DNA of 64,000 nt from a virus (taxonomy: Duplodnaviria > Caudoviricetes), in IMG/VR virus record IMGVR_UViG_3300021560_000015, positions 1 through 64,000 of that record; one strand, given 5' to 3'. A program made the position numbers and the translations under genes. Below the pieces are notes generated by a model that had not been told where the DNA came from, ran no database searches, and worked only from the letters and a program-made list of their open reading frames with translations. Shown piece after piece: positions 25,301-40,951 of this stretch. Positions within the stretch are counted from its first letter, which is position 1. Every line of letters begins with the position of its first letter.

Positions 25301-28300
25301 GGCAAGCTGACCGGCGCACCGGGTCCACAGCAGGCGGCCATCGAGCAGGCCTCAGCGGCTGCGCTGAAGTTTGCGGGGAACACCACCCAGGCCGTTGTGC
25401 AGTTGGAGAAGCTGGCCAACGCATCCGGTGGCGCAACAGCTGCGATAGAGCAGGGTTCCGCGCAGTGGGCTCGCATGTTCGACGACGCCAACATGCAGTA
25501 CAAGTCCAAAGCGCAGCAGCTAGCCATCTTGGCACAGCGGGTTACTGCCGAGCGGCCGATGGCCACTGGGCCCCATGCCAAGCCGGAGGCCCAGAAACTC
25601 TATACGGGCGATGTGCAGGCACTGCTGGCCGGCAAGAGCGACTACAACCAGAGCCTGATCCAGCAGTACCAGGCGGCGCGCGACTTCGGCATCCAGATGA
25701 CCCGGATGTACCAGCAGTACTACACCACGAGGGATCGCCAGCAGCGCGACTTCCACCGCAGCCAGGCGCGGGCCGAGCAGGACTACAACCTGTCGCGGGC
25801 GCGCGAGATCCGCGACTTCAACAGGCAGGAGCTCTACGCGGCGCAGGACTACAACACCCAGGTCTTCCGCACCACCCAGGACTTCCACACTCAGATGAAG
25901 CGGGAGGCCGAGCAGGCTGCGCAGAGCATCTACAACCCGTTCCAGGAGGTGCAGGCCCAGGAGGTGGCCGGCGCCGGCATGACGCTCTACAACCTGCGCG
26001 ATCAGAACCGGCGCATCTTCCAGCAGATCGCGCAGCTGCGGCAGGCCCGCAAGATGGGGCTGTCCACCCAGGCCATCAAGGAACTCAACCTGGCTGACCC
26101 GCAGAACGCCCAGCAGTTGAACGCGATCGTGCAGCAGCTGGGCACTCCAGGGATGGCCTGGCAGATCAACCAGGCGGTGGCGATCCGGGTCAAGGGCACC
26201 ACCAGGCTGACCCAGAACACGCTGAACACCGAGTTCGCGAACACCATCCAGGACTTCCATCGCGGCCTGGCCCGGATGAAGGCCGACTACGACCGCACCC
26301 ACCAGCGGGCACTGGATCAGCAGCACACCGCGCTGACCGACATGGCGCACGACTACCACGTCAACACCCGGCGCATGGTGGCCGACGAGAACACCGCCCT
26401 GCAGGACATGGCCTTCGATTTCCACCGCACGGTGAATCAGACGGTGGGCGACATGACTCGGCAGATGACCGAGCTATATGGGTCGTTCGCGGTGAACACC
26501 ACCAAGGCCATCCAGGAGATCAACAGGACCTTCGGCAAGTACGCACCGCAGCTGGCCCGCACGCTGACCGCACAGATCGCGGTGGCCGAGAGCGCGATCC
26601 AGAGCGCGGCAACCACCAGCTACGGCCAACCGGGGATGCCGGTTGGGCCCGGTCTGGGTGGCCAGATGGGCCAGGTCACTGCCGGGAGTACCGGCGTAGG
26701 CAGCACGCGTGCGCAGCGCACGGTGGCCAATGCCTTGGTCGGGGCCGGCGTGAGCGCGGCCGGCGTAGCCGGAATCATGGGCAACATCGCTCAGGAGTCC
26801 GGCTTCAATCCGCTGGCTGGTAGGGGCACCGCCCATCAAGGCATTGGGCAATGGGGTGGCTCGCGGTGGGCCGCACTGCAGGCATTCGCGCGCTCATCGG
26901 GCTCCTCGGCCTATGACCTGAACACCCAGATCGCGTTCATGATCCGCGAAGCGAGGGCTCGCGGAGATCTCAGCGCAGCCAGCCAGGCCGGCTCAGCGAT
27001 GGCGGCAGCGGCCAGTTGGAACCAACGCTTTGAGGGCAGCGGAGAGAAGCCCGGCGATCCCGGTTACGCGAACCGGATGCGCTATGCGCAGGCGTGGGCG
27101 AGAAGCGCGCGCTACCAAACTGTCGGTGGCATCGGACGGAGCCCAGTCGGTCGCGGGCTACGTCGGGGACGCACCGACCAGGGCGTGGACTGGAGCGGCT
27201 CGGGCCCGATCTACGCGGTGGGCAACGGGCGCATCGCACTCGCCATCCCCAACGATCCGGGCTGGCTGGGTTCCTACATGGTGCTCAAGCTGGACAACCC
27301 GCCGAGCCGGGACCGCCAGTTCGTCTACTACGCCGAGGGGATCCACCAGACCGTGCGCCAGGGCCAGCGGGTGCGCGCCGGCCAAGTCATCGGGCATGCC
27401 TACGGTGGCTCCTCTGGCATTGAGATCGGCTGGGCGGCCGGCGCCAGCCAGACCACCCAGGCGCGGGCGCACAACCAACAGGCGCCAGGCAGCGACCCAG
27501 GCGCCCGGCCCTCCGGCTATGGCAGAAACTTCGCGCGCTGGATCACCGGGCACCAGCGCGGTGGCATCAGCCAGCACGAGCACCTGGCTCGTATTGCCGA
27601 GCACAACATGCCGGAGGCGGTCATCCCGCTGGACAACCGCGGCCACCAGTTCCTGCGCAACATGTACGCGAAGATCGCCGAAGACCTACGCCGGCTTGCT
27701 CACCATCGCCCGCGCGGAGTGACCACCGCCGATGTCGGTGCACTGCGCCAGCGCGAGCAGCAGCTCGGCCAGGCACTGCAGCACATCCATATCCACCACC
27801 ATCTGACCGCGGACCAACGCTGGGTGGCCCATGTGCGGCAGCAGGAGCGCAAGGCGCTGGAGCCGATCCGGCATCGCGAGCACATCCTGGCGCTGCGGGA
27901 GAACACGCTTGAGCACAAGCTGGCCAACAAGCACCTGAGCAAGATCGCACGGGAGGGCCTGGAGACCCGCGAGAAGGGCGTGGAGAGGCGACTCGATGCG
28001 CTGCGCGCGCGTGACGATCGGGTCCGCCAGCAGTTTGAGCACAAGATCTGGTGGCATCACGCGAGCGCCGAGCAGCGCTACGAGTACACCGTGCACGAGC
28101 ACATGCGGCAGCGGCTGCACCCGCTACAGCGCCAAGAGGAGAGCCTGGACAACCGGATCCGGCGGGTGGCGCACCGGCTGGCCCATGACCGGCTGACCAT
28201 GCATGAGCGACACCTATTGGAAAAGCGCGAAAAGAACCTGAAGAAGGAAGAGAAGAACGTCGAGAAACGCGAGACGCACGTCCGCAACGAGGCCGCGCAG

Positions 28301-29074
28301 ACCATCCATCGGCATCGCGAGCGGATCTGGGAGCGCGGCCAGGAGCAGCAGTATCAGCAGGCCCACCGGCGCCAGACCCAGCAGTACACCGCCGGCATCC
28401 TCGGGCGGATCGGCTATGACGCCGGGCAGGATCTGGCCAACGTCTACTTCGGCCAGGCGACCAAGCGCGACAAGGACCGATACAAGCAGTTCCAGAAGAA
28501 CGTGGCCGACCTGCACGAGCTGCAGCAGGAGGCGCGGCAGCATCGGGCTCGGCACGCCACGCACAACCACCACGGTGGCACGCACCACCATCACCACCAT
28601 GGCGGCCAGCACCACCACCACGGCCCAGGATTCACGCTGGCCGAGCTGCATGCCATTTCGCGCCGGCGTGAGGAGGCTCGAGAGAGGGCGGGGGCAGCGG
28701 CGGCACGTACCGAGCTGGCCAAGATGCACCAGTACAACCTGGGCGCTTCACCCCAGTTGCGAGCAACCGAGATGCGTCATCTGCGAGAGAGAAGTATGCA
28801 TCTCGCGGTCGAGATGCATGCTCCCTACGTTCGACACCACGCGGCCCAGCAACATCACATGGAGACGCAGCTGCACCAGCTGATACTGCATCTGCACGCT
28901 GCCCAGCGTGGGCTGCCTGGCCAGCAGCATGGTCATGCCACCTACAACCAGGACTACCGCACCCAGTTCCAGATCCATCAGATGAACATCGCGGCCGCCG
29001 ATGCGGCCAAGATTCAACGGGAGCTGGACCAGCTGGCCAGGCTGAAGAAGCTGACCGCTCCGGCACACCACTGA
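22352..29074 (+). CDS. Tape measure protein with tail-lysozyme domain, degenerate M23-like domain and His-rich C-terminus
   Basis: 2240 aa Ala/Gly-rich helical protein after the chaperone; AGIMGNIAQESGFNP...GIGQW lysozyme motif; DQGVD...VRQGQRVRAGQVIG M23-like. Confidence 0.9.
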   Translation: MTTFADPMPTPYDGGGGDVSRSATVQLDANTSGYQQQMRAAQAATAQLTQGVTQLSFHVDNLFKAAGKGLKIISAGDVALMTSAVASAASFQQQMGTLSATAAVTGKSMSTFSSAVNNAFVKFPQSRGEIVQMVQSLAGLSVGSKYIGQITQEAIKLETALGEQGVGAALVQLDRTMGVTQARFGNMANSLLTLAKNAGVSGGGIAQQAQMIAPISRMAGMRPGQILGAATAMQRSGASAGTAASMWNSMLTDMMTMARTGDPNLTQYSSFMGMSQGQLTRMINRGQAGQAMGAIFRQLSRGGAPALNFVNQMGWGPRGISAAQALSNAQLQRMMTMGQGATANQANLNKGFQAATNNLVDSMSKLHNQVTMLVEQLGAPLLGPLTAFAKAMSSVVGVISKIAGAPVIHQMLTAAGVAAPLGLGAGALVLRHLPMIMGMATINLLRKTGLGVAFREGRAQAAGALAPGEALIGSQIAAAGGIGAAVRGGGINARAAGAYMMGQRFGGWFGAAPAAGAGGPGMIRRGLAYGLRGIGLGGAWAYNMQAQTLRDARLEGYARSAYAGTGLGTGQAAAEQASIRARIAAEKMTTDQLLANAGLLGVAKQSIRDLTRAGFRYASEAGKTGAALAGGALWGGVKGFGRGLRGMAGRALFGPSMPSFEAQRAAELKVQEADARLATAMEAQAAAVGKGTAAMTKANEAYVKAVLDVDAALVEQAAVARASAKRGLISGGPGGAGVLGGMLGIGRGRGYGMGVGMTAMLASTFLPGTLGRVAGGVGTGAMIGSMIPIPGATVAGMAIGGLTSWLTRPKAPPKPDPALEAAKRAVPSQAQAVQNAMAMTGSVKSPAVKAIIMGYARKEGMVADAKKAGVSEDDLYKALTGQRISTQQVPAPGIVPSGAAMPMGPGAGYGSATQVMGESMSPALALVQRWATQGGSDRHLQETRLLEGAVKRGARQWATAGAQPMTPLGSFLASSRAFQAVTTGKLTGAPGPQQAAIEQASAAALKFAGNTTQAVVQLEKLANASGGATAAIEQGSAQWARMFDDANMQYKSKAQQLAILAQRVTAERPMATGPHAKPEAQKLYTGDVQALLAGKSDYNQSLIQQYQAARDFGIQMTRMYQQYYTTRDRQQRDFHRSQARAEQDYNLSRAREIRDFNRQELYAAQDYNTQVFRTTQDFHTQMKREAEQAAQSIYNPFQEVQAQEVAGAGMTLYNLRDQNRRIFQQIAQLRQARKMGLSTQAIKELNLADPQNAQQLNAIVQQLGTPGMAWQINQAVAIRVKGTTRLTQNTLNTEFANTIQDFHRGLARMKADYDRTHQRALDQQHTALTDMAHDYHVNTRRMVADENTALQDMAFDFHRTVNQTVGDMTRQMTELYGSFAVNTTKAIQEINRTFGKYAPQLARTLTAQIAVAESAIQSAATTSYGQPGMPVGPGLGGQMGQVTAGSTGVGSTRAQRTVANALVGAGVSAAGVAGIMGNIAQESGFNPLAGRGTAHQGIGQWGGSRWAALQAFARSSGSSAYDLNTQIAFMIREARARGDLSAASQAGSAMAAAASWNQRFEGSGEKPGDPGYANRMRYAQAWARSARYQTVGGIGRSPVGRGLRRGRTDQGVDWSGSGPIYAVGNGRIALAIPNDPGWLGSYMVLKLDNPPSRDRQFVYYAEGIHQTVRQGQRVRAGQVIGHAYGGSSGIEIGWAAGASQTTQARAHNQQAPGSDPGARPSGYGRNFARWITGHQRGGISQHEHLARIAEHNMPEAVIPLDNRGHQFLRNMYAKIAEDLRRLAHHRPRGVTTADVGALRQREQQLGQALQHIHIHHHLTADQRWVAHVRQQERKALEPIRHREHILALRENTLEHKLANKHLSKIAREGLETREKGVERRLDALRARDDRVRQQFEHKIWWHHASAEQRYEYTVHEHMRQRLHPLQRQEESLDNRIRRVAHRLAHDRLTMHERHLLEKREKNLKKEEKNVEKRETHVRNEAAQTIHRHRERIWERGQEQQYQQAHRRQTQQYTAGILGRIGYDAGQDLANVYFGQATKRDKDRYKQFQKNVADLHELQQEARQHRARHATHNHHGGTHHHHHHGGQHHHHGPGFTLAELHAISRRREEARERAGAAAARTELAKMHQYNLGASPQLRATEMRHLRERSMHLAVEMHAPYVRHHAAQQHHMETQLHQLILHLHAAQRGLPGQQHGHATYNQDYRTQFQIHQMNIAAADAAKIQRELDQLARLKKLTAPAHH

Positions 29075-29795: not shown

Positions 29796-30638
29796 TTACG
29801 GTTGGTTCGGCCGAATCTTCTTCGGCTTCTTCGGGTACTGGATCAGCTTGCTGGGCGTACGCAGGCCATGGTTGTACTCATCGACGATCATGAAGGTCCA
29901 CTCATCGGAGCGCGACTCAGAACCGCCACCACCACGGCTGCGGGCGATGGCCCTGCTGTCCCACAGAGTCACCGGTGACTTGGTCAGGGTCCGCGCCAGC
30001 CGCTTGAAGTCGATGTTCACGCGGTTGGCATGGATGACCTTGCCGATCGCCTGGAGGGCGTTGGCCGACCAGGTGTCCGCCTGTCGGCCCCATGCGGTCT
30101 CAGCGACACCGAGCGTCTCGCGGAGCAGCTCGTGGTTGGCCGAGTCCAGATCCACGATGCGCCGCGCAGCGGTCACTGCGCCGATGATGTTCGCACTTGC
30201 CGTCTTGCCGTAGTCGAGCCCGCATGCCTGCGCCTGCTGGAACATCCGACGCTCGGTACGCATGCCGGCGGTCAAGCCGACGCGGTACTGGTCGTACGGA
30301 TACGGGGCCTTGCGGTTGCGGTTGAGCGCCAGGAACATCTTGGCCTCTTCGCGCAGAGTCAGACCCTCATACACGGTGCAGGCGACGGTGGTGACACCGA
30401 GGCGGTTGAGGACCTCGATGCGGTGCTGGCCATCAATGACCCATAGCGAGCCATCCTTGCGGCGAGAGACGACCGGGATACCGAGATAATCCGGATCCCA
30501 CATGGCCAGGAGCGCGATGACCCAGGTCTCCACGAGCCAGCGCTGCCGGTTCGCGTCGACGTACAGGTCTGCCACGCTCAGGGTCTCGAAAGAGATCTTG
30601 CGTGGCTTGGTGCTGGGCACCGTTTTGAGCACAGCCAT
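29796..30638 (-). CDS. ParB/Srx-like DGQHR (DUF6551-like) protein
   Basis: YVD...QR...WDP..LG.PVVS...WVIDGQHR. Confidence 0.7.
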   Translation of the reverse strand: MAVLKTVPSTKPRKISFETLSVADLYVDANRQRWLVETWVIALLAMWDPDYLGIPVVSRRKDGSLWVIDGQHRIEVLNRLGVTTVACTVYEGLTLREEAKMFLALNRNRKAPYPYDQYRVGLTAGMRTERRMFQQAQACGLDYGKTASANIIGAVTAARRIVDLDSANHELLRETLGVAETAWGRQADTWSANALQAIGKVIHANRVNIDFKRLARTLTKSPVTLWDSRAIARSRGGGGSESRSDEWTFMIVDEYNHGLRTPSKLIQYPKKPKKIRPNQP

Positions 30639-30810: not shown

Positions 30811-30836
30811 GGAACCTCCTTGGTAGGTGGGTGTGG

Positions 30837-30992
30837 TTACCTCTTTGGGTCGTACTGCGTGTCCTTCGTACTCCGTGTGGGGAGCGCCGTCCAGTCATGA
30901 CAGAACGAGCAGTAGCCCTCCTCGAGATCCCTCGGGTGCCAACTGACCTTCCCGCAGCGCGGGCAGGTGAAGTGCGGCATCCGGTCGGCCAT
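30837..30992 (-). CDS. 51-aa zinc-finger protein
   Basis: TCPRCGKVSWHPRDLEEGYCSFCHDW; RBS GGAGG. Confidence 0.65.
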   Translation of the reverse strand: MADRMPHFTCPRCGKVSWHPRDLEEGYCSFCHDWTALPTRSTKDTQYDPKR

Positions 30993-31158
30993 TCAGTCCT
31001 CCAATGTGTAGACGAGACTGGTCTGGGGAGGGAGCATCCCCACCCCGATGGACGAGATGCGTGACGGGTCGATGCGGTACTCCGGCACCAGGTACCAGCG
31101 GTGCAGGCCGTAGGCGTCCTTCCCGTCATAGAGCACATCGCAGCTGATCCTCTTGCCG

Positions 31159-31731
31159 TCAATCAGAACCAGGTGTACCCCGGTCGGCGGTTGTGGCGTC
31201 TCTTTCGTGCGCTTGCGCCGGAAGATCTCCGTTCCCTCCCTCGAGCAACATCACCGATGCGATCGCTGCGGCATCCCAGATGCACCCGGACGCGCAGTCC
31301 CAGCCGTAGTACCAGTGGTATTCGGAGAGCCGGTAGTCCCACAGATACGGGCTGATGATGATGCCCTGGTAGGCCTGTGCGACCGCTCGCCAGTCCGGCT
31401 GTCCCTTCTCGAACAGGAAGCCACTCGAGTAGCGGTACATCGGATTCGGGATCCGGAACCGCTCATGGAACTCCTCGAACTCCCATGGCTTGCTGACATG
31501 CAGGACATTCGCATCGCCGGCCAGCGTGACCAGCCATGCGTGTCCGAGTCGATCGACCGCGAACTCCTCGGCCGAGCACCAGTCGAGCCAGCTGTAGTCG
31601 CTGTCCTCGTCAGACACCCAGAAACCTCGAGGCTTGTAGAGGTGGATCAGCGAGGTGGGCTCGCCGTCGATCTGTAGCCGAGACTCGACTACCAGCGGGT
31701 CCTCCTCCTTGCGGTAGTGGATCAGGCGCAT
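31159..31731 (-). CDS. Trp-rich hypothetical protein
   Basis: RBS, coding bias; KPRGFWVS, WYYGWDCASGCIWD. Confidence 0.65.
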   Translation of the reverse strand: MRLIHYRKEEDPLVVESRLQIDGEPTSLIHLYKPRGFWVSDEDSDYSWLDWCSAEEFAVDRLGHAWLVTLAGDANVLHVSKPWEFEEFHERFRIPNPMYRYSSGFLFEKGQPDWRAVAQAYQGIIISPYLWDYRLSEYHWYYGWDCASGCIWDAAAIASVMLLEGGNGDLPAQAHERDATTADRGTPGSD

Positions 31732-31755
31732 TCCATCCCTTCCTGGTGGGTGTGG

Positions 31756-32442
31756 TTAGGCAGCCCGCAATTCTCTCGCACGCTGCGGAGCGGGTATTTC
31801 GATGTCGTGCCGGTATCTGCTCATGTTTGCCACGGCGAGGAAGCCCTCCTCGTCGTCCTGCAGCGCGAGCATCTGCGCGATGTAGGAGTCGGTGGTGGGC
31901 TCCTTGCCGTACAGGTGGGCACAGAACGAAGCCACTGCGTTCTCGCCCTCGAGCCCGTCCATCAACATGACGTTGCCGGACTTGCTACCCCGGCATTTGA
32001 TCCGATACCGCCGGCCAGAAGGAACCAGCACATCGAAGTGCTTGTGTTCGGCCAGGTCAACCAGCTGCTGCGGGGAGAGCAGACTCTCCAGCAGCACCCG
32101 AGCGGTCACGTTGGCCTGCCGCTCCACCTCTTGGCGCTGCTGCAGCGCGGCCCGGTACTGCTGCTCACGTGCCTCACTCTCGGCACGTTCTTCTGCTGTC
32201 GGCACCCGGTACACCGCACCGCCACCGCCGGCGCCGATCGACACATACGGCGTGTTCCAGTACTCCCAGACGATGTTCGTGCTGACCGTCGTGGTGGTGG
32301 TGTTCCACCACTGCCAGGCACTGTCCGGGTATGGGACCCAACCGCCGGTAGAGGTCAGGGTGCCGCCGGTGCCACTGGCGGTGGTGTAACCACTGCTGCC
32401 ACCACCGCCAGCACCCCAGACCTGGACCGGCACGTCAGCCAC
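31756..32442 (-). CDS. Hypothetical protein with Cys-His motif, partner of ubiquitin-like protein
   Basis: GTG overlaps upstream stop; RYRI...GNV...FCAH...P..D..IAQMLAL..DE..FL..AN. Confidence 0.65.
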   Translation of the reverse strand: MADVPVQVWGAGGGGSSGYTTASGTGGTLTSTGGWVPYPDSAWQWWNTTTTTVSTNIVWEYWNTPYVSIGAGGGGAVYRVPTAEERAESEAREQQYRAALQQRQEVERQANVTARVLLESLLSPQQLVDLAEHKHFDVLVPSGRRYRIKCRGSKSGNVMLMDGLEGENAVASFCAHLYGKEPTTDSYIAQMLALQDDEEGFLAVANMSRYRHDIEIPAPQRARELRAA

Positions 32443-32668
32443 CCTGCATCGGCTTGACCAGGATGATGCGCTCGGCGCTCGCGTCGAACTCCCGGACCTG
32501 GGAGCCACGCTCGCCCTTGGCGCCCTGCGCGGCGTAGGCCAGCATGCCCTTCTTGCGGGCCGCAGTGAAGGCGGCCTTGGCGACCGCCACCTCCTCCGGG
32601 TTCTCGCTGTCCCACACGATCTTGGTGTCGCCCTCGTGGTTCAACTCGTGCATCACTCCGGTGGTCAT
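32435..32668 (-). CDS. Small protein ending in Gly-Gly, candidate beta-grasp ubiquitin-like protein
   Basis: 77 aa; apparent beta-beta-alpha-beta-beta-beta pattern; ends RIILVKPMQGG. Confidence 0.65.
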   Translation of the reverse strand: MTTGVMHELNHEGDTKIVWDSENPEEVAVAKAAFTAARKKGMLAYAAQGAKGERGSQVREFDASAERIILVKPMQGG

Positions 32669-32702
32669 TACGACCCCCTTTCTGTGGGGTGGGTTGTTGG
32701 GG

Positions 32703-33086
32703 TTAGTCCTCTTCCTGCTCGGCCTTCAGCCATGCCTCCAGCCGGATCCGCTCCACGGAGCTGAGCGGCGGCCGGTCCATCAGAATCTCGCGGATGGACG
32801 GCTCATGCTTGCGCCGCGCCCTCGCATCCTCGTTCAGCAGCATCTGCGCCAGCGCCTCGAAGCGCCCGGTGATGACGTCCTCTGACTTCTCGATCATGCG
32901 GGCCACATCGGCGGCATATTTGTTCAGCCCAGCGTTGACCGCCTCGTCGATGCGGCGCTGGACTGATGGGCTCAGCGAATTGATCAGCGCGATCAGCTCG
33001 TTGCGCAGCTGCTTGGCTTCCTGGATCGTCTCGTGCAGCTCGCGAGTCACGGTGCGGAGGACCGTGATCTCGTCCTGCACCTTCAT
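32703..33086 (-). CDS. Coiled-coil hypothetical protein
   Basis: Heptad-like pattern; coupled to upstream gene. Confidence 0.6.
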   Translation of the reverse strand: MKVQDEITVLRTVTRELHETIQEAKQLRNELIALINSLSPSVQRRIDEAVNAGLNKYAADVARMIEKSEDVITGRFEALAQMLLNEDARARRKHEPSIREILMDRPPLSSVERIRLEAWLKAEQEED

Positions 33087-33697
33087 GCGTTCGGCCCCGA
33101 ACGGAGGCGGTGCACCACCGCCATCCGGGGCCGTTCCTCCTCCTCCCGCTGCTCACGCAGACGGGCAGCCTGGTCGCTCAGTACCCGCTTGAGTCGGTGC
33201 GCCTCGGTGATCGCGGACTGGAACAGTTCTTTGGCTTCCTCGATCCACAGCTCATCGCCGGCCGCCTCCGCGTCCGCGGCATCCCAGGCCAGTCGATTGA
33301 CATGGCGCTGGGTGCGTGCCTCGCGCAGGAAGCTGCGCCACAGTTCCATCGTCACGCTGTTCTGGTACGCCGGCTTGGTCGGGGGCCGTGGCTGCGGCTC
33401 CGGCTCCAGCCAGTCGACGGGTAGCGGATCAGGGATCCGCGTCACGTACCGGCGAGACGTATCCGCATTGCGGGCCCGCAGATCGTTGCCGACCGTATCG
33501 AGCCCGACATCCAGCGCATGGCAGATCTGGATGCGGGTGGCACCCTGTCGCCAGAGCTTCATCACCGCATCGCGCCGTGCATTCTTCTCGTCCTGGGTGA
33601 TGCGGCGAGCCGGCTGTGGCCGGCCATTCGCATCTCTGTGCATCGGGATCCGATGACCATAGGTATCGGAGTGGTACTCGACCGTTTTCTTACTCAC
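33083..33697 (-). CDS. HTH-containing hypothetical protein
   Basis: LWRQGATRIQICHALDVGLDTVGNDL helix-turn-helix pattern. Confidence 0.6.
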   Translation of the reverse strand: MSKKTVEYHSDTYGHRIPMHRDANGRPQPARRITQDEKNARRDAVMKLWRQGATRIQICHALDVGLDTVGNDLRARNADTSRRYVTRIPDPLPVDWLEPEPQPRPPTKPAYQNSVTMELWRSFLREARTQRHVNRLAWDAADAEAAGDELWIEEAKELFQSAITEAHRLKRVLSDQAARLREQREEEERPRMAVVHRLRSGPNA

Positions 33698-34569
33698 TTC
33701 AATCGCCCCGTGCGCTTGCCGCGGTTGTACTCAGCTACGAACCGATCGAACAGCGTCTTGTGCGGTGGCTGCTTGTCATCGCCTTTGCCGATGGAGCGCC
33801 ACTGCATAGCCGGCTTCATCTTCATCCTGGTGGCCAGGTGGTCGCTGTCCACCTCATCCCACCATTTGCGGTGCATGTCTGCGACAGCGAGCAGGATGTT
33901 GAAGTCCCACCGGCTGGTGGCCGAGTCGTGGTCGTAGGTCGGCCACGCCTCCATGACCGTCAGGAGGGTGCGCGCCAGCAGCTCGGCGCCATCCTCCGGG
34001 GTGTACTGGTGGCCATGCACGATCGTCTTGATGGTGGCCACGCAGGAGATAGTCATGTTGGAGGGCTTGTGCCCGAGCCGCAGACCCATCTCCTCGAGCA
34101 CCTTGGTGGCCTGCACCTCATGCGGGTGCTCGGAGTGCAGGGCGCTCATCCACTTCTCGTATGCACTGTGGGTGGCTCGGCCGCGCACAATGTCCAATGC
34201 CAGCTGTGCCTGCTTCGGGGTGGTCAGCGACTCCGGTAGCACCATGCACCAGATCAGCATGTCCGGGTCGAGATCGCGCACCGCCTTGACTCGGTGCTGC
34301 CCCTCGACCACGACGTAGCCGGCCTCGGTGAAGACCACAGTCGGGGTCTCGAACATGGCCCAGTCGAACTCGTTGACGATGTTCCGGACGCGGTCCTCGG
34401 TCAACTCCCGCTGTGCACGAGCGTCGATGATCAGGTCTCGTGCGGCGATCTGCTCGGGGACCCGTGGGTCCGGGGATAGTGGTTGGTTCTTACCGCGGGC
34501 TGCCGTCATGGCAGCACCTCTTTTCCTTCGCTTCGGCGCAACCTTTGCGCCGCTGGTGGGTGTGGACAT
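33694..34569 (-). CDS. ParB/Srx-like EGQHR protein (paralog of 29796-30638)
   Basis: LIIDARAQR...FDW...P.V...VVEGQHR; start reassigned to ATG 34569 after RBS AAAGGAAG. Confidence 0.7.
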   Translation of the reverse strand: MSTPTSGAKVAPKRRKRGAAMTAARGKNQPLSPDPRVPEQIAARDLIIDARAQRELTEDRVRNIVNEFDWAMFETPTVVFTEAGYVVVEGQHRVKAVRDLDPDMLIWCMVLPESLTTPKQAQLALDIVRGRATHSAYEKWMSALHSEHPHEVQATKVLEEMGLRLGHKPSNMTISCVATIKTIVHGHQYTPEDGAELLARTLLTVMEAWPTYDHDSATSRWDFNILLAVADMHRKWWDEVDSDHLATRMKMKPAMQWRSIGKGDDKQPPHKTLFDRFVAEYNRGKRTGRLK

Positions 34570-34594
34570 AGCCACTTCCTTTCTGTTGGGGTTT

Positions 34595-34771
34595 CTAGAA
34601 GACAGCACCCTGCTGCTTCTCCCAGCGAGCGCACTCCCGGCACACGTCCCATACGTGGCCGGGGGTGTCGCTCACGGGTTCCATCGAGATCCGCAGCATT
34701 GCTCTGCAGCAGATCTGGCAGATGATGAGGCCGGTCCTGCGCCTCATCTCGATGGAGATCTGCGGGTCCAT
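34595..34771 (-). CDS. Small CxxC/CxxC zinc-binding protein
   Basis: CQIC...CREC; start overlaps upstream stop. Confidence 0.5.
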   Translation of the reverse strand: MDPQISIEMRRRTGLIICQICCRAMLRISMEPVSDTPGHVWDVCRECARWEKQQGAVF

Positions 34772-35133
34772 TACTCGGCCAGATAGACCTGGGTGGTGCC
34801 GGCGAATGCCTCTTGCCATTCCCACTTGTCCAGCACGTAGCGCCGGAAGTCCCTGCTGGATAGTTCGATCTCATCCTGGGTGTGCCACTGCAGTTCTGCG
34901 ATGGCCTGCTCGTACTCTTCGGCATACGAGCGCGGCACCGGCATCCGGGCAAGCACAGCCAGGTCGATCGGGTTGCCTCGGCGGGCGTCCATCAGCCGCC
35001 GCTCCAACTCCAGACTGACCTTCTTCCGGTACGCCTCCTGGGCCAGATCCACCCTGGTCTGGTGGGTCTTCAGGTTGGTGCGTAGCTTGTCGATCAGTTC
35101 GTTCTTGTTGACGGTGATCGGGTTGTCCATCAC
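34771..35133 (-). CDS. Hypothetical protein
   Basis: Coupled ORF, coding bias. Confidence 0.65.
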   Translation of the reverse strand: MMDNPITVNKNELIDKLRTNLKTHQTRVDLAQEAYRKKVSLELERRLMDARRGNPIDLAVLARMPVPRSYAEEYEQAIAELQWHTQDEIELSSRDFRRYVLDKWEWQEAFAGTTQVYLAE

Positions 35134-35495
35134 GTGACCTCGAGCGTGTCGGCTGCCTGACCCAGCTGCTTGGCGATGTCCTCCACCGTGGTGGTGGGCT
35201 TGTCGCTCCAGCTGGTGACGGTGTGACCGCCGAGCTGGGCCTCGAGCTGCTTGCTGATGATCCGCTCGGCATAGCCGGCGTTGGTCCGGGAGCCGATGCT
35301 CAGGGCCGGCGCGCTCAGCATTCCTGTCTCGTCCAGCTGGTAGCCCAGTCCTTGCTCAGCCAGTGCCACTCGGATCGCACCGAGCGTGCAGACCCGACCG
35401 CTAGCGTCCTGGAAGGACCCGGTGGCCTTGCCCTTACTCTGGACGATCTCAGCCGCTCGCCGGGCAATAGCAGCGATCCTCTTCATGCCGATCAT
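35130..35495 (-). CDS. DUF6197-like protein, paralog A
   Basis: AAEIV..KG......GRVCTLGAI. Confidence 0.6.
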   Translation of the reverse strand: MIGMKRIAAIARRAAEIVQSKGKATGSFQDASGRVCTLGAIRVALAEQGLGYQLDETGMLSAPALSIGSRTNAGYAERIISKQLEAQLGGHTVTSWSDKPTTTVEDIAKQLGQAADTLEVT

Positions 35496-35881
35496 TCGCA
35501 CACCTCGATCTCATCCGCGACCTGCAGATAGGCCTTAGCGATGTCCTCCGCGCTGTTGCCGGGGAGTGTTGCGTCATTCCACTCCGGCACCGTCATGGGC
35601 CTGGGCAGGTTCGAGATCTGGCGCATCTTGCGCTGGAAGGATTCGACGATCATCTCCTCGCAGCGCGCTGCGTCAGGGCGGCTCAGACCACCCGCGTCGA
35701 CACCGCGCAGCGGGTTGAACCGCCAGCCCAGATCCTGCTCGGCCATCGCCAGCCGCAGCGCGCCGATCGCGCACACCCGGCCGGTGGCGCTGTCATAGAG
35801 CTCATGCTTGGTCTTGCCGCGGACTTGGATGATCTCGGCCGCACGTCTTGCGATTGCTGCGATCTGCTTGACGCCGATCAT
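35492..35881 (-). CDS. DUF6197-like protein, paralog B
   Basis: MIGVKQIAAIARRAAEII..RG...GRVCAIGAL, N-terminus nearly identical to paralog A. Confidence 0.6.
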   Translation of the reverse strand: MIGVKQIAAIARRAAEIIQVRGKTKHELYDSATGRVCAIGALRLAMAEQDLGWRFNPLRGVDAGGLSRPDAARCEEMIVESFQRKMRQISNLPRPMTVPEWNDATLPGNSAEDIAKAYLQVADEIEVCE

Positions 35882-35918
35882 TGAGCCTCCTGTAGCTCAT
35901 AGGTGGGTGTGGGCCAGG

Positions 35919-35949
35919 CCGGGGGGTGCTGGATAGGACCACCCCCCGG
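35919..35949. terminator. Intergenic GC-rich hairpin
   Basis: CCGGGGGGTG/CACCCCCCGG 10-bp stem; no clear U-tract. Confidence 0.4.
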
Positions 35950-35960
35950 ACTGGCAGCTC

Positions 35961-36227
35961 TTACTTCAGGTGAATGCGGTACAAGTTGCCTGCGTTCAGC
36001 GACTTGTTCCAGTTGAACACCGCCTGGGCCTGGGCCCGCACCGGCACACCGGTATAGGCCGAGAGCACCCGCTGCACCTTGTTGTCCTTGACAATGGCCA
36101 CTCGCATCGTGTGCGAGAGTTTGCTCGCCCAGATCTCCTCACTGACCTGCAGTTCGATCGGCACGAGCAGGGTGAAGACTGCAGTGTCGCCGAAGCGGCG
36201 GACCGGCACGTCCTTCATGGTTGGCAT
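35961..36227 (-). CDS. Hypothetical protein
   Basis: RBS GAGGAGG. Confidence 0.6.
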   Translation of the reverse strand: MPTMKDVPVRRFGDTAVFTLLVPIELQVSEEIWASKLSHTMRVAIVKDNKVQRVLSAYTGVPVRAQAQAVFNWNKSLNAGNLYRIHLK

Positions 36228-36238
36228 TGCTTACCTCC

Positions 36239-36739
36239 TCACTTCCGGGCTTGAGATCTCTTGATCCGTTCCCAGACCTTCTCGCCATGCTCGGTACGTA
36301 CGTGCGCGCCGTACCCCTGACCGAGCTGGGCCAGGAAGCCACACTGCTCGCACTCGATGGACTCGCCGGCCGGCGGAACCTGACGGCTCGCTTCGACCCG
36401 GTCAATGCCGTGAATGCTCACCATGTGGCCGATCGTTCCGGTCCGTCCGGTGCGCGGCTCGTGGCAGATCGGGCAGCGGAACTTGCCATAGGTGGGTGCT
36501 GGAGCAATGACCGCCGGCCGCAGGCCGAAGATCTCACCCTCGCTGAGCGTCCCGTATTGATTCAGGAACTCCTGGGTCAACTCGCCCAGCACCAGCTTCG
36601 TGGCGTGCTCGGTGCACAGGTCCAAGTCGTAGGGCTTTGAGTCATCCAGCGTGATCGTGACGCTGTAGGACGCTTCCACCTCACGACTGTCCATCACCCA
36701 GTCGACGCCGCAGAACTTCAACACGATGGGCCTACGCAC
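36239..36739 (-). CDS. Lsr2-like dimerisation domain fused to two C2H2 zinc fingers
   Basis: TITLDD..YDLDLCTEHA resembles Lsr2 N-domain; CPIC..H...H and CEQC..H...H. Confidence 0.55.
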   Translation of the reverse strand: MRRPIVLKFCGVDWVMDSREVEASYSVTITLDDSKPYDLDLCTEHATKLVLGELTQEFLNQYGTLSEGEIFGLRPAVIAPAPTYGKFRCPICHEPRTGRTGTIGHMVSIHGIDRVEASRQVPPAGESIECEQCGFLAQLGQGYGAHVRTEHGEKVWERIKRSQARK

Positions 36740-37151
36740 TTTCAGCACCGCCCATCGCGGCGTGCACAAGGTCGTAGATGTCGCCCTCGGCCTCGACCAC
36801 CGTGCGTGTTGCGAGCGCTGCCAATCGGACATAGTTCATGCCCTGCCGGTTGATCCGGCCAGCACCCGGCGGCATGTAGTAGTCCTTGTCCAGGATGGGT
36901 GTCCACTTCTTGAGGACCGCCCCGGTGCGTGGGTTGATGATGCGGTACTTGAACCCCTCGCATTCCTGGCAGCGCAGGATTTCGGACTCTTCCTTGCCGT
37001 TCGTGATGCCGGTGTAGAACTTCCATGAGTGCCACACCGAGCGACAGCGCAGCACTGCCGGCTCGGTTGCGGCCCAGTGGTCGATCTGCTGTTGCACCAC
37101 TCGCGCTGTTGCGTACTTCGGTTTTCTGACGTACTGCGTGGTAGCCACCAT
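36732..37151 (-). CDS. Hypothetical zinc-binding protein
   Basis: CRSVWHSW...CQEC; RBS AAAGGAAG. Confidence 0.6.
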   Translation of the reverse strand: MVATTQYVRKPKYATARVVQQQIDHWAATEPAVLRCRSVWHSWKFYTGITNGKEESEILRCQECEGFKYRIINPRTGAVLKKWTPILDKDYYMPPGAGRINRQGMNYVRLAALATRTVVEAEGDIYDLVHAAMGGAESA

Positions 37152-37166
37152 TCACTTCCTTTCCTA

Positions 37167-37646
37167 TTAGTGGTGGGTGGTGGGGAACCTGCCGAGGATC
37201 GGCAGGTCCTTGAATCCGTAGCCCGGATCGTTGGGCCAACGGTGTTCAAGATCTTCAAAGACCAACTGGAACGCCCGGATGTCTTCGCCGTAGAAGTAGC
37301 GCGCCAGGGTCAGGTCGGATAGGTCATCCGCCTCGATCAACATGCCGTGGTAGTCGTTCTGGAACTCGATCAGCACGCCGGGCGCGAACAGTTCGCCGCC
37401 AGCGGCCCGCTTGGCCAGGTCGTTGAGCGTGACCTTGCCGGACTCCAGGTTCAGCCCGTACTCGATGAACTCGGGCAGGCCCTTGTCCGCCAGCCCGACC
37501 GTGTAGCAGAACTCGTATCGCTGGTTTGGCTCGGTGTCCTGGGTGGGGAAGACGCCCTGCACCATCCAGCCGTAGTGGGCGATCAGTGTCAGGCACTCGG
37601 CGTTGTAAGCAGCTCGGCGGAGCTGCTTCTCCATCTCGTCCATCAC
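37167..37646 (-). CDS. DUF4262-like protein
   Basis: I..YGW.VQGV...F.YTVGL...GLPE.I.YGL. Confidence 0.7.
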   Translation of the reverse strand: MMDEMEKQLRRAAYNAECLTLIAHYGWMVQGVFPTQDTEPNQRYEFCYTVGLADKGLPEFIEYGLNLESGKVTLNDLAKRAAGGELFAPGVLIEFQNDYHGMLIEADDLSDLTLARYFYGEDIRAFQLVFEDLEHRWPNDPGYGFKDLPILGRFPTTHH

Positions 37647-37849
37647 AGATCAGCCGGCTTGCCGATACCCGGAAAGTTGTAGTCGCCGCTCAGCACGGCC
37701 GCGATCTCGGCAGCTTCCGCCTCCCGAAACTTCGGGTGCTCCCGTTCCTTTGTCTTGCAGTCCATGCAAATGGTGTCGGTATTGAAATAGCTGGTGGTGT
37801 AGATCCCTGTCTCGGTGTTGCACCGGTCGCAAATCATTAGCCGCTCCAT
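37643..37849 (-). CDS. Small zinc-finger protein
   Basis: CDRC...SYFNTDTICMDC. Confidence 0.65.
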   Translation of the reverse strand: MERLMICDRCNTETGIYTTSYFNTDTICMDCKTKEREHPKFREAEAAEIAAVLSGDYNFPGIGKPADL

Positions 37850-38067
37850 TCGCAGGTCTGACCAACCAGCGCGCGATTGTCAGACTCGATGACGGTGACG
37901 ATGTGGGTGGCTGCCATCGACCGCCCGTCCGGGGTGTTGTCCGGGTGGCCGTGCCCGCAACCAGTGAGCTCGAATGCCCTGTCCTGCCAGTCCTCTTCGT
38001 CGGGCAGGTCGAAGGTCTCCTCGCATTCATGGCCATCGGCGTACACGTTCTCGATCAGAATCTTCAT
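37837..38067 (-). CDS. Hypothetical protein
   Basis: RBS GGAGG; start reassigned to ATG 38067. Confidence 0.55.
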   Translation of the reverse strand: MKILIENVYADGHECEETFDLPDEEDWQDRAFELTGCGHGHPDNTPDGRSMAATHIVTVIESDNRALVGQTCEWSG

Positions 38068-38291
38068 GGCTTCCTCCGCTCTGGCTTGTAGAAGCCGCCC
38101 TGGTAGCGCCAATGGGCTTTCCAGCAGACCTCGCAGATGTCGTGGCCGCTGGTCCGTCGCCAGCCGGCGCTTCTGGCCAGGGCGAGGGCCTGCGCGGGCG
38201 TGCGGACACCGACGACCGGTAACTTGCTCCGGCCGCCGATGCCCACACACTCAGGTACCTCGCACACCACGATGAAGGTGTGCTCGATCAT
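38064..38291 (-). CDS. Small Cys-containing hypothetical protein
   Basis: CEVPEC...GW...DICEVC. Confidence 0.6.
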   Translation of the reverse strand: MIEHTFIVVCEVPECVGIGGRSKLPVVGVRTPAQALALARSAGWRRTSGHDICEVCWKAHWRYQGGFYKPERRKP

Positions 38292-38630
38292 CTAGAACGT
38301 CCGCTGCGGCTCAATGCTGAAGGTGATTGCGCCGGGCGCGCATATCCAGGTTCGATGGGCCTTGCCCCAGCCGTCGTAGCGGTTGATGAACTGCTGGGCC
38401 TCGAGCGGCAGGTCAGCCCAGTAGGTCAGGCCATCCCTGCCCCGCCATTGCGCCTGGGTGCCGCTGACCCGCACCTCGCGCATGCCGAGCGAGAGCAGCG
38501 CCTGCGCGATGGCGCAGCGCGCCCCGTTACCCGGAGTGCCGATGCGGATGTGCTGCTCCGTCACCTCCACGATGAGCAGCGGATCGGGGGGCAGCTGGGT
38601 GGTCTCGATCTCGGGCAGCACCGCAGTCAT
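38292..38630 (-). CDS. Hypothetical protein, paralog A
   Basis: LPPDPL.IVEVT...I..GTPG....CAIAQ shared with next gene. Confidence 0.65.
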   Translation of the reverse strand: MTAVLPEIETTQLPPDPLLIVEVTEQHIRIGTPGNGARCAIAQALLSLGMREVRVSGTQAQWRGRDGLTYWADLPLEAQQFINRYDGWGKAHRTWICAPGAITFSIEPQRTF

Positions 38631-38653
38631 TACTGATCCTTTCGAGAAGATGT

Positions 38654-39061
38654 TCATCCTTCGTTGACCCCCGCCTGCACCTCGAGGGTGAAGGTCAGCG
38701 GTTCCGGGCATTCGTAGTACTCGCTCTCGCAGCAGCCATCGCAGAAGTCGTCGGTGCAGTCGTCATAGTGGTCATCGCTGCCATCGTCGTTCTCGCCCCA
38801 CTTGTCGTAGGCACGGATGAACTCATCGGCCTCCGGCGGCAGGTTCGCCCAGTACCACTCGTTCTCCGTGGTGCGCCACTGGGCCTGAGTGGCCACCTGC
38901 ACGCTGTGGAATCCCTTGCGCAGCAGCACCTGCGCGATAGCACAGCTGCTCGCATCGCCGGGAGTGCCGTTCTCGATGTCGCTCTGGGTCACCTCGATGA
39001 CCATCAGGGGATCGGGCGGCAGCTCGGTGAGCGTGAGTTGCTCCGAGAGAGTGCTGGTCAT
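38654..39061 (-). CDS. Hypothetical protein, paralog B with acidic Cys-rich insert
   Basis: LPPDPL.VIEVT...I..GTPG....CAIAQ. Confidence 0.65.
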   Translation of the reverse strand: MTSTLSEQLTLTELPPDPLMVIEVTQSDIENGTPGDASSCAIAQVLLRKGFHSVQVATQAQWRTTENEWYWANLPPEADEFIRAYDKWGENDDGSDDHYDDCTDDFCDGCCESEYYECPEPLTFTLEVQAGVNEG

Positions 39062-39294
39062 TCCTTCTCCTCCTCGTCGTAGCGGCCGAGGCTGAACTCC
39101 AGCCCCTGCCGTAGTTCACTGATGTAGGGCTTGCGGCCCCATACCTCTTGGAATTCCTGTTCGATCTGGTCGAGAGCGCCGTCCAGAATGTCGGCCGGAC
39201 CATCGCCCCAGAACTCATCCCGCTCGCTGGCGTTGTCGCGTGGCCCCTGCATTTCGGCGATGCCGCCGTACTTGCCGGCGTTCCACCAACCCAT
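39058..39294 (-). CDS. Hypothetical protein
   Basis: Coupled ORF. Confidence 0.6.
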   Translation of the reverse strand: MGWWNAGKYGGIAEMQGPRDNASERDEFWGDGPADILDGALDQIEQEFQEVWGRKPYISELRQGLEFSLGRYDEEEKE

Positions 39295-40945: not shown

Positions 40946-40951
40946 ACGTTT

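What the first reader, a model, noticed from the sequence alone, without database searches (positions are those of the whole stretch)
31756..32668. Phage ubiquitin-like diglycine protein coupled to a Cys-His partner
Seen: a 77-aa protein with beta-grasp-like strand/helix order, ending FDASAERIILVKPMQGG (compare ThiS/MoaD/Ubl ends such as GD.V.I.PPV.GG). Its stop overlaps the start of a protein with a Trp/Thr-rich N-terminus, a coil and a RYRI...GNV...CAH...D...AQ domain. No E1 or sulfur-transfer enzyme is in the window. Known: bacteria use E1/E2/Ubl conjugation in antiphage defence. Inference: a minimal phage conjugation pair, a decoy for host Ubl systems, or a sulfur carrier using host enzymes.
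Basis: partly seen in the sequence, partly recalled or inferred. Interest (0 to 1): 0.75.

Follow-up and report, generated by a model that had tools for sequence, protein, structure and literature searches.

The report
Phage ubiquitin-like Gly-Gly protein pair
An uncultured soil phage carries a small ubiquitin/MoaD-like protein ending in Gly-Gly, always followed by a partner with an invariant cysteine; this undescribed two-gene module occurs in many phages that have no activating enzyme of their own.

Summary

**Gene A** (32435-32668, minus strand, 77 aa)
- It belongs to a large family: 863 cluster representatives at E<=1e-3.
- It has no Pfam, NCBIfam, PHROG, PADLOC or PDB-sequence match.
- Of the 150 best relatives, 129 end exactly in Gly-Gly. 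Another 15 keep the GG followed by 1-4 residues or by a fused domain.
- AlphaFold gives a beta-hairpin/helix/beta/beta fold (pLDDT 83). Its structural neighbours are nearly all beta-grasp proteins, at modest Z (<=6).

**Gene B** (31756-32433/32442, minus strand)
- It lies beside A on the same strand in 41 of 41 loci, just downstream in 40, mostly within -8 to +7 nt.
- It has conserved WxxW motifs, a charged helix, and a C-terminal domain with invariant Cys174 and Asp185. His176 is kept in only 31 of 40.
- Its fold could not be predicted, so the "E2-like" idea is untested.

**Context**
- 34 of 36 phage records carrying the pair lack both ThiF-like E1 and JAB.
- The family is essentially phage-only.

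**Best reading (about 0.4):** a phage Ubl or carrier whose GG end is activated by a host E1-like enzyme and handled by B's cysteine.

The parts
32435..32668 (-). Gene A: 77-aa beta-grasp, ubiquitin/ThiS/MoaD-like protein ending in Gly-Gly (P0001).
   Evidence: ORF and translation. 863 relatives at E<=1e-3. AF2 model pLDDT 82.7 with beta-hairpin 3-20, helix 24-39, strands 43-47 and 67-71. Structural neighbours are beta-grasp proteins.
32674..32680 (-). Shine-Dalgarno-like AAGGGGG, 5 nt upstream of A's ATG.
   Evidence: Read directly from the sequence.
32438..32443 (-). Codons of the terminal Gly76-Gly77 (GGT GGC), followed by TGA at 32435-32437.
   Evidence: G76 and G77 are invariant in the 119-sequence alignment A3. 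GG is kept in loci where B does not start next to it.
31756..32442 (-). Gene B: partner protein. 228 aa from the GTG at 32442 (8-nt overlap with A), or 225 aa from the GTG at 32433 (1 nt after A's stop), which is the more likely start.
   Evidence: P0162, 225 aa; homolog starts align with residue 4.
32254..32343 (-). B N-terminal Trp/Thr-rich region with two conserved WxxW(N) motifs (W43, W46, W59, W62).
   Evidence: The Trp columns are kept in 32-35 of 40 homologs and are visible in alignment A5. One homolog (L043) has a hydrophobic, transmembrane-like segment here instead.
32119..32199 (-). B charged, Glu/Arg/Gln-rich helical linker (residues about 82-108); possibly a coiled coil.
   Evidence: Composition and alignment A5. 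High helix propensity in a crude profile analysis. This is inference, not a structure.
31822..32118 (-). B conserved C-terminal domain (residues about 109-207). Pattern: LLxxxL[ST]xxQ ... FxV ... YRI ... GNVxxL ... G ... CxHP ... PxxD ... LAQKLxLExDE ... F ... AN.
   Evidence: Alignments A5 and A6: invariant L122, C174, D185, A205; at least 90% for Q126, F136, N157, G166, P182, Q190. No Pfam, PHROG, PADLOC or PDB-sequence match.
31921..31923 (-). Codon of the invariant Cys174 (TGT). His176 is at 31915-31917.
   Evidence: Cys 40/40, His 31/40; coordinates read.
31888..31890 (-). Codon of the invariant Asp185.
   Evidence: 40/40; invariant in A5 and A6.
31759..31767 (-). B C-terminal ...Arg-Ala-Ala end.
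   Evidence: 15 of 42 B homologs end in Ala-Ala and 22 of 42 in Ala, against 4% and 14% of background ORFs.

Best explanation
Gene A encodes a new, phage-specific member of the ubiquitin/ThiS/MoaD kind of beta-grasp protein. Its working part is the free carboxylate of a flexible ...PPxxGG tail. It acts as an obligate, translationally coupled pair with B. Proposed mechanism: after infection, a host E1-like adenylating enzyme (MoeB/ThiF/MoeZ class, present in nearly all bacteria) adenylates the A C-terminus, because the phages carry no such enzyme. The activated end is then taken over by the invariant Cys174 of B's C-terminal domain as a thioester or acyl-persulfide, with Asp185 nearby. From there it passes to a target protein or small molecule. 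B's Trp-rich N-terminus and helical linker would place or oligomerise the complex. SHOWN HERE: the family; the conserved terminal GG; the beta-grasp-like model; the strict A-B coupling; the invariant Cys and Asp; and the lack of phage E1/JAB. INFERRED: activation by a host E1; a covalent A~B intermediate; any downstream target.
For: (1) GG conservation is at the protein level. 129 of 150 distant relatives end in GG. 15 more keep the GG followed by 1-4 residues or a fused domain, as Ubl precursors do. G76 and G77 are invariant in A3. (2) GG persists where B's start is 81-464 nt away (L003, L009, L020, L026) and where the gene order is reversed (L041). The first Gly codon is GGA in only 3 of 35 loci, so GG is not a by-product of an overlapping start or a GGAGG ribosome-binding site. 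(3) The AF2 model (pLDDT 82.7) has beta-grasp order with a lower-confidence tail. Neighbours in PDB and BFVD are beta-grasp proteins, including SUMO, MoaD, SAMP1, bacterial Ubls and viral ubiquitins. (4) The profile of A aligns to a ThiS/MoaD alignment in the right register, with ERIIxxPPxxGG on DEVAxxPPVSGG. P=5.4e-4, better than 20 of 20 column-shuffled controls and than unrelated families. (5) B lies next to A on the same strand in 41 of 41 loci (directly downstream in 40; upstream in L041), and also follows A in Virus Rctr197k and L101. Otherwise the neighbourhoods are unrelated. (6) Cys174 and Asp185 are invariant at 19-60% identity. (7) ThiF and JAB are absent from 34 of 36 carrier records and from 10 of 11 records that are at least 90% complete, while ThiF-like genes are found in 12 of 14 control genomes. 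(8) One natural in-frame fusion, A-GG-DUF6197 followed by B, resembles ubiquitin-fusion precursors.
Confidence: 0.4

Rival explanations
1. Non-covalent two-subunit enzyme or carrier complex, in the manner of MoaD-MoaE or ThiS-ThiG. A is thiocarboxylated by host enzymes, and its tail inserts into a pocket of a B dimer for a sulfur or small-molecule reaction (for example a nucleotide or cofactor modification), with no protein conjugation.
For: The A tail (ERIIxxPPxxGG) is closest to the sulfur-carrier type (DEVAxxPPVSGG) rather than to ubiquitin's LRLRGG. The gene order, small GG subunit then larger subunit a few nt downstream, is the same as moaD-moaE in the Acidobacteriota loci fetched. B has a helical linker that could dimerise it.
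Against: B is not MoaE-like (hhalign P=0.72, no Pfam hit). No sulfurtransferase, PP-loop or radical-SAM gene is a conserved neighbour; no cluster other than A and B occurs in more than 9 of 41 loci once antisense shadow ORFs are set aside. No substrate can be suggested.
Confidence: 0.2
2. No ubiquitin-like chemistry. A is a small beta-grasp binding or regulatory subunit (chaperone, inhibitor or antitoxin-like) of B. The GG end is kept for structural, binding or translational-coupling reasons.
For: No activating enzyme is encoded. The structural neighbours with the best Z are non-modifier beta-grasp domains, protein L and protein G. Many B proteins end in Ala-Ala, suggesting regulated proteolysis as in labile partners. 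The stop-start overlap shows tight stoichiometric coupling.
Against: A terminal dipeptide kept in about 96% of 150 relatives at 37-58% identity (144 of 150), including cases with short extensions after it and loci where B is not adjacent, is hard to explain without a role for the C-terminal end itself. Codon choice shows no ribosome-binding-site optimisation.
Confidence: 0.15
3. Counter-defence decoy. A mimics host Ubls or CD-NTase C-termini and, with B, traps or misdirects host E1/E2 machinery (Bil/Bub operons, type II CBASS Cap2) or host MoeB/ThiF.
For: The pair sits in the early, leftward-transcribed arm among small genes of unknown function. Bacterial Ubl conjugation is used against phages (bioRxiv 10.1101/2023.09.04.556158; 10.1101/2023.09.26.559546, listed). 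The family is essentially restricted to phages.
Against: Known Ubl-based defence operons are sporadic, whereas the pair is kept across very diverse phages. No similarity to PADLOC models of those systems. A pure decoy would not obviously need an obligate partner with an invariant Cys.
Confidence: 0.1
4. B is a GG-specific cysteine peptidase (a new deubiquitinase-like fold) that matures A precursors and fusions, or removes host Ubl marks from phage proteins.
For: 15 of 150 relatives carry residues or whole domains after the GG and would need trimming. The A-GG-DUF6197 fusion is followed by B. Cys174, His176 and Asp185 could form a triad.
Against: His176 is replaced by Leu, Gln, Val, Tyr or Ala in 9 of 40 homologs. 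Cys, His and Asp lie within 12 residues, unlike known Cys-peptidase triads (own knowledge). Most A proteins already end at GG and need no processing.
Confidence: 0.07

Closest known systems
ThiS/MoaD/CysO sulfur-carrier proteins (Pfam PF02597) and their E1-like activators
   Same: Small beta-grasp-like protein. The last strand is followed by a PPxxGG tail ending the protein. Occasional C-terminal extensions or fusions after GG occur. There is a weak profile match in the correct register.
   Different: No Pfam hit for any of 119 members. The similarity vanishes without the tail. A has a distinctive GDTKxxWD hairpin. No ThiF/MoeB, MoaE, ThiG or CysM is nearby. The family is found in phages, not in cellular biosynthetic operons.
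MoaD-MoaE (molybdopterin synthase) gene pair
   Same: A two-gene unit, with the small GG subunit immediately followed by a larger partner gene.
   Different: B shows no similarity to MoaE (P=0.72). It also has a Trp-rich N-terminus, a charged helix and an invariant Cys.
Bacterial Ubl conjugation operons (Bil, Bub/6E, type II CBASS Cap2/Cap3)
   Same: A beta-grasp Ubl with a glycine C-terminus, plus a protein with an essential-looking Cys. The setting is phage-host conflict.
   Different: Those operons encode E1, E2 and a JAB or other deubiquitinase. Here none is found in 34 of 36 phage records, and there are no PADLOC matches. The module is carried by the phage, not the host.
Lambda/T1 tail assembly protein I (TAPI) Ubl domain (Iyer et al. 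2006, PMC1779556)
   Same: A phage-encoded ThiS/MoaD-related beta-grasp domain with a conserved C-terminal glycine.
   Different: TAPI sits in the tail-assembly cluster beside TAPK (JAB plus NlpC/P60) and TAPJ, and carries its own C-terminal domain. A-B lies in the non-structural arm with no peptidase, and gives no Pfam hit to that family.
Urm1/TtuB dual-function Ubls
   Same: Sulfur-carrier-type tail, with possible protein attachment without E2 or E3.
   Different: These need a dedicated E1 (Uba4/TtuC). No such gene, and no thiouridine synthetase, is linked to A.

Membership tests
Ubiquitin-like / ThiS / MoaD beta-grasp modifiers and carriers | Beta-grasp fold (beta-hairpin, helix packed on a mixed sheet) | tested here: met
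Ubiquitin-like / ThiS / MoaD beta-grasp modifiers and carriers | Conserved Gly-Gly (or Gly) at the end of a flexible tail after the last strand | tested here: met
   129 of 150 relatives end in GG and 15 more have GG plus an extension. G76 and G77 are invariant in A3. 36 of 41 loci end in GG. Background is 2.2%.
Ubiquitin-like / ThiS / MoaD beta-grasp modifiers and carriers | Sequence membership in a curated family (ThiS PF02597, ubiquitin, Prok_Ub and others) | tested here: not met
   None of 119 members hits any such Pfam model at E<=0.01. No NCBIfam hit. hhalign to a ThiS/MoaD alignment gives probability 30%, P=5.4e-4, falling to 0.077 without the tail.
Ubiquitin-like / ThiS / MoaD beta-grasp modifiers and carriers | Cognate E1-like adenylating enzyme encoded with it | tested here: not met
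   No ThiF in the window's 76,953-nt record. Found in 2 of 36 other carrier records, both about 0.4-Mb phages and far from A-B.
Ubiquitin-like / ThiS / MoaD beta-grasp modifiers and carriers | C-terminal acyl-adenylate, thiocarboxylate or thioester actually formed | not testable with these tools
   Needs biochemistry or mass spectrometry.
E2 / UBC-like conjugating enzymes (for B) | UBC/RWD-type alpha-beta4-alpha fold | tested here: inconclusive
A crude propensity and periodicity analysis of the alignment suggests helix, four short strands, loop, two helices. That order is compatible with UBC but not diagnostic.
E2 / UBC-like conjugating enzymes (for B) | Invariant catalytic Cys in the loop after the fourth strand | tested here: met
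   Cys174 is 40/40, at the end of the fourth predicted strand and before the PxxD loop. Its catalytic role is not shown.
E2 / UBC-like conjugating enzymes (for B) | HPN motif upstream of the Cys, or any UBC-clan profile match | tested here: not met
   No HPN motif; the motif is CxHP after the Cys. No UBC-clan family is among the Pfam hits listed for 34 members at E<=1; 25 of 36 matched families are shown, the rest each matched at most one member. No PDB-sequence match.
MoaE (molybdopterin synthase large subunit, for B) | Sequence or profile similarity to PF02391 | tested here: not met
   hhalign of the B domain against 19 MoaE sequences gives P=0.72. No Pfam hit.
Lambda-type TAPI Ubl | Tail-assembly cluster context with a JAB/NlpC peptidase (TAPK) and TAPJ | tested here: not met
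   A-B lies in the leftward non-structural arm. No JAB in the record. Family definition taken from PMC1779556.
Bil / Bub / CBASS-II Ubl defence systems | Operon with E1, E2 and a deubiquitinase; matches to defence-system models | tested here: not met
   No PADLOC hit for 9 A and B proteins. No ThiF or JAB neighbours.

The most novel reading that the evidence does not exclude
A minimal, phage-borne ubiquitin-like conjugation system made of only a Ubl (A) and a new-fold Cys carrier or ligase (B). It either hijacks a universal host E1-like enzyme or works without any E1, and covalently marks host or phage proteins (or B itself) during infection. It would be the first phage-encoded protein-tagging system, and a counterpart to the bacterial Bil, Bub and CBASS-II conjugation defences.
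Probability: 0.25. Interest if true: 0.92.

Novelty: new variant of a known kind. Interest (0 to 1): 0.78.

Why it matters
Ubiquitin-like conjugation in bacteria has recently emerged as an antiviral weapon, but phages are not known to carry Ubl modifiers of their own, apart from the tail-assembly TAPI domain. Here is a large family (hundreds of 50%-identity clusters) that is essentially phage-restricted. It has the hallmark Gly-Gly end and is locked to a partner with an invariant cysteine. Both families are missing from Pfam, NCBIfam, PHROGs, PADLOC and the PDB.

If the tail is chemically used, the pair would show either hijacking of the host's sulfur-carrier E1 enzymes or a new E1-free route. 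If it is not used, it would be an example of a Gly-Gly tail kept for another reason. Either way it gives two new protein families, clear point mutants (GG, Cys174, Asp185) and a simple co-expression test.

Tried and rejected
- **Co-folding A with full-length B** (complex prediction). No verdict. The score was 0.75, but a control with B replaced by an unrelated protein scored 0.66, so the result is not usable either way.
- **Structure of B.** The ESM Atlas holds no model for B or for its homolog P0170, and its feature hits (<=0.89) were unnamed clusters.
- **First AF2 model of A**, from 6 sequences. Only one of five models was confident, and Foldseek gave nothing sensible. It was replaced by the 119-sequence model.
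- **tblastn of A and B against 50,697 phage records.** No match. A more central family member found only two metagenome-derived records.
- **Word-index search with the B alignment.** It was swamped by low-complexity candidates and gave 10 hits, none with a domain or a name.
- **Fetching prokaryotic E2 sequences for a profile comparison.** Prok-E2_B was found in none of 301 Acidobacteriota genomes searched, nor in the controls. The comparison was not made.
- **BFVD top hit**, an Agrobacterium phage Atu_ph07 117-aa protein (probability 0.97, E=0.05). The A profile found only a spurious E=0.026 match inside an unrelated 250-aa gene of that genome.
- **GG as a by-product of the overlapping B start or a ribosome-binding site.** Rejected.
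- **Double-glycine leader or RiPP precursor.** Rejected, because GG is the end of a folded domain and the extensions are only 1-4 residues.
- **B as MoaE.** Rejected.
- **Pfam LTXXQ (5 members) and DUF6894 (3 members, E 0.035) hits to B.** These are short-motif matches, not domain evidence.
- **Expression.** No RNA holder was listed among the sequencing runs; only soil-metagenome DNA runs hold the stretch.
- **Promoter and terminator scan around the pair.** Nothing convincing.
- **Literature searches** for phage-encoded Ubls of this type. Nothing found.

Full report
**What is there**

On the minus strand, an ATG ORF at 32435-32668 encodes a 77-aa protein (A, P0001) ending ...AERIILVKPMQGG. An AAGGGGG ribosome-binding site lies 5 nt upstream.

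The next gene on the same strand (B, P0002) can start in two places:
- at the GTG at 32442, overlapping A by 8 nt;
- at the GTG at 32433, one base after A's TGA.

The second start is the one in the public protein collection (P0162, 225 aa), and it aligns with the starts of homologs. B ends at 31756.

The window is part of a 76,953-nt IMG/VR virus record, 72% complete. The only run that holds the whole stretch is a soil-metagenome DNA run, which may be the source sample. Its portal protein is 42% identical to those of Arthrobacter phages. GC content is about 65%. This points to an uncultured actinophage-like siphovirus.

The pair lies in the leftward-transcribed, non-structural arm that begins after the 2,240-aa tape-measure gene. 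It sits between two ParB-like DUF6551 genes.

**Gene A belongs to a large, uncurated family with a conserved Gly-Gly end**

A has no hit in Pfam, PHROGs, NCBIfam, PADLOC or PDB sequences. This holds for A alone and for 119 family members scanned one by one.

An exhaustive HMMER scan of 1.84 billion cluster representatives found 863 relatives at E<=1e-3 and 76 at E<=1e-10. Nearly all align right up to their own last residue.

Among the 150 best relatives (37-58% identity):

| C-terminus | Count |
|---|---|
| End exactly in GG | 129 |
| GG at the same position, then 1-4 residues (C, V, I, R, A, L, LA, AA, RWPR, QHGI) or a longer extension | 15 |
| AG | 4 |
| PG | 1 |
| Other (Gly-Arg at the homologous position, then read-through; P0129) | 1 |

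One of the longer extensions is a DUF6197 domain fused in frame directly after the GG (P0043, Pfam E=2.4e-12).

In the 119-sequence alignment A3, only W19, G76 and G77 are invariant. The consensus is GDTKxxWD ... A..F ... FDPxAERIIxxPPxxGG. Only 2.2% of background ORFs in the same GC-rich loci end in GG.

**The GG is not a side effect of the downstream gene**

The GG codons lie where B's ribosome-binding site or start falls, so this was checked.
- GG is retained in loci where B starts 81-464 nt further on (L003, L009, L020, L026).
- GG is retained in L041, where B lies upstream of A.
- The first Gly codon is GGA, which would give GGAGG, in only 3 of 35 loci.

**Fold**

With alignment A3, AlphaFold2 gives five concordant models (pLDDT 78.5-82.7). 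They show a beta-hairpin (3-20), a helix (24-39), strands at 43-47 and 67-71, and a less confident tail.

Foldseek against the PDB has no hit below E=0.09. Even so, the list is almost entirely beta-grasp domains: RA/RBD, SUMO, PB1, FAT10, ISG15 and a bacterial Ubl.

An exhaustive structural alignment against 48,161 chains gives:

I read this as beta-grasp topology, supported. Assignment to the modifier branch rests on the tail rather than on the structure scores.

**Relation to ThiS/MoaD**

I fetched 29 ThiS/MoaD-family segments from Acidobacteriota genomes. Most end DEVAxxPPVSGG, and several carry extensions. No sequence from the unpublished genome G025 was used.

| hhalign comparison | P-value |
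|---|---|
| A3 vs ThiS/MoaD (probability 30%) | 5.4e-4 |
| A3 vs 20 column-shuffled ThiS/MoaD controls | 0.028-0.79 |
| A3 vs MoaE | 0.21 |
| A3 vs B domain | 0.10 |
| A3 vs ThiS/MoaD, last six residues removed from both | 0.077 |

The real comparison places the helix, third strand, last strand and tail in the correct register. Once the tails are removed the signal is no longer significant.

So A works like, and ends like, a sulfur-carrier-type Ubl. It is not demonstrably a member of that sequence family.

**Gene B**

Alignments of 34-40 homologs at 19-60% identity show three parts.
1. A Thr/Ser/Asn-rich N-terminal region with two WxxW(N) motifs, kept in 32-35 of 40. One homolog has a hydrophobic, transmembrane-like segment instead.
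2. A Glu/Arg/Gln-rich helix.
3. A domain of about 100 aa with the pattern LLxxxL[ST]xxQ ... FxV ... YRI ... GNVxxL ... G ... CxHP ... PxxD ... LAQKLxLExDE ... F ... AN.

Invariant residues are L122, C174, D185 and A205. His176 is present in 31 of 40 and is otherwise Leu, Gln, Val, Tyr or Ala.

No curated family or solved structure matches by sequence, and B is not MoaE-like (P=0.72).

I could not obtain a 3D model. A crude propensity and periodicity analysis suggests helix, four short strands, loop, then two helices, with Cys174 at the end of the fourth strand. That order is compatible with a UBC/RWD-like core but proves nothing.

B proteins end in Ala-Ala in 15 of 42 cases, against a 4% background. 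This resembles ssrA-type protease tags; the comparison is from my own knowledge and is untested.

**The pair is obligate, phage-borne and carries no activating enzyme**

Patterns from a sub-alignment of A found 37 loci in IMG/VR, but only one in 185,579 species genomes. That one is a 10.9-kb contig of a Sulfotelmatobacter MAG. A profile search found A in 1 of 401 Acidobacteriota genomes, the same MAG.

I clustered all ORFs within 6 kb of A in 41 loci.
- B was present in 41 of 41, on the same strand.
- The stop-to-start distance was -8 to +7 nt in most.
- The only exception in order was L041, where B precedes A.
- No other real gene family occurred in more than 9 loci. That family is ParB-like; the nominal 14-locus cluster is antisense shadow ORFs.

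The pair is also present in Virus Rctr197k, as a tandem-domain A ending in PG, then B. It is present again after the A-DUF6197 fusion in L101.

ThiF-like E1 and Prok-JAB genes were found in only 2 of 36 carrier records. Both are 0.4-Mb phages, and in both the two genes sit together, roughly 140-190 kb from A-B. Ten of eleven records that are at least 90% complete have neither.

**How it most likely works**

A conserved free Gly-Gly carboxylate on a beta-grasp domain, with tolerated short extensions and a fusion, is the signature of proteins whose C-terminus is adenylated and then carried as a thioester or thiocarboxylate.

The phages supply no adenylating enzyme, while nearly every bacterium has MoeB/ThiF-type enzymes (12 of 14 control genomes). 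So the simplest scheme has two steps:
1. a host E1-like enzyme activates A;
2. B's invariant Cys174 takes over the activated end.

I put this scheme at about 0.4.

The rivals, with my estimates, are:
- a MoaD-MoaE-like non-covalent enzyme complex (0.2);
- a pair with no tail chemistry at all (0.15);
- a decoy for host Ubl or E1 machinery (0.1);
- B as a GG-specific peptidase (0.07).

None is excluded by the data here.

**Novelty**

The only phage Ubl in the classic survey of prokaryotic Ubls is the tail-assembly protein TAPI, which comes with a JAB/NlpC peptidase (PMC1779556). Five full-text searches found nothing describing a phage Ubl-GG plus Cys-partner module.

I file it as a new variant of a known kind. 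The known kind is Ubl/ThiS/MoaD-type beta-grasp proteins. What is new is the family, the carrier (phages), the partner, and the lack of an E1.

The earlier scan notes on this sequence refer to this same stretch. The pair has not been reported from other DNA by the scan.

**Limits**

- B's fold and any A-B contact are undetermined.
- Structural scores for A are modest.
- All homologs come from metagenomes, so hosts and expression are unknown.
- The co-occurrence count rests on loci found through A, so B without A was not surveyed.

Noticed in passing
window 31759-31767 (-); B homologs in L001-L043: B proteins end in Ala-Ala in 15 of 42 cases and in Ala in 22 of 42, against 4% and 14% of background ORFs. 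This looks like an ssrA-type (…LAA) protease tag and suggests B is a short-lived protein.
   Followed up: partly
L101:4001-4693 (P0043); window 35130-35501 and 35492-35881 (-): In one phage contig, A is fused in frame, directly after its GG, to a DUF6197 domain, and B follows. The window itself has two adjacent DUF6197 genes 2.5-3.2 kb upstream of A, and other carrier contigs also have DUF6197 genes nearby.
   Followed up: partly
L079/L077 (G061:C1:335515-337330); L080/L078 (G075:C1:236904-237903): The two 0.4-Mb phages that carry A-B also encode an adjacent JAB-like and ThiF-like pair, roughly 140-190 kb from A-B. This may be a separate phage-borne E1/peptidase cassette.
   Followed up: no
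window 30826-45330 (-), e.g. 31745-31755: The 11-mer CCACACCCACC occurs 8 times exactly, all on the minus strand. With one mismatch allowed there are 15 matches against 2.4 expected. One copy lies immediately after B's stop codon, and a near-copy lies just upstream of A's ribosome-binding site (about 32687), so the pair is bracketed by the motif.
   Followed up: partly
window 29796-30638 and 33694-34608 (-): Two ParB-like DUF6551 genes flank the region. ParB-like genes are the next most frequent neighbours of A-B, in 9 of 41 loci.
   Followed up: partly
L044:3803-4231 (Virus Rctr197k); P0106: A sub-branch of family A has two tandem beta-grasp repeats and ends in Pro-Gly instead of Gly-Gly. B still follows.
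   Followed up: partly
L003:6220-6683: In one close relative, a 464-nt insert with a doubtful 132-aa ORF separates A from B. A keeps its GG.
   Followed up: no
window 22352-29074 (+): The 2,240-aa tape-measure-like protein has long His-rich runs near its C-terminus (such as HHGGTHHHHHHGGQHHHHG). It is the last gene of the rightward structural arm.
   Followed up: no
window 53396-53485 and 53956-54028 (+): tRNA-Ser(CGA) and tRNA-Ala(GGC) genes lie in the phage record.
   Followed up: no
L043:6258-6740 (P0170): One B homolog replaces the Trp-rich N-terminus with a hydrophobic, transmembrane-like segment. This hints that the Trp-rich region may be a membrane- or envelope-targeting part.
   Followed up: no
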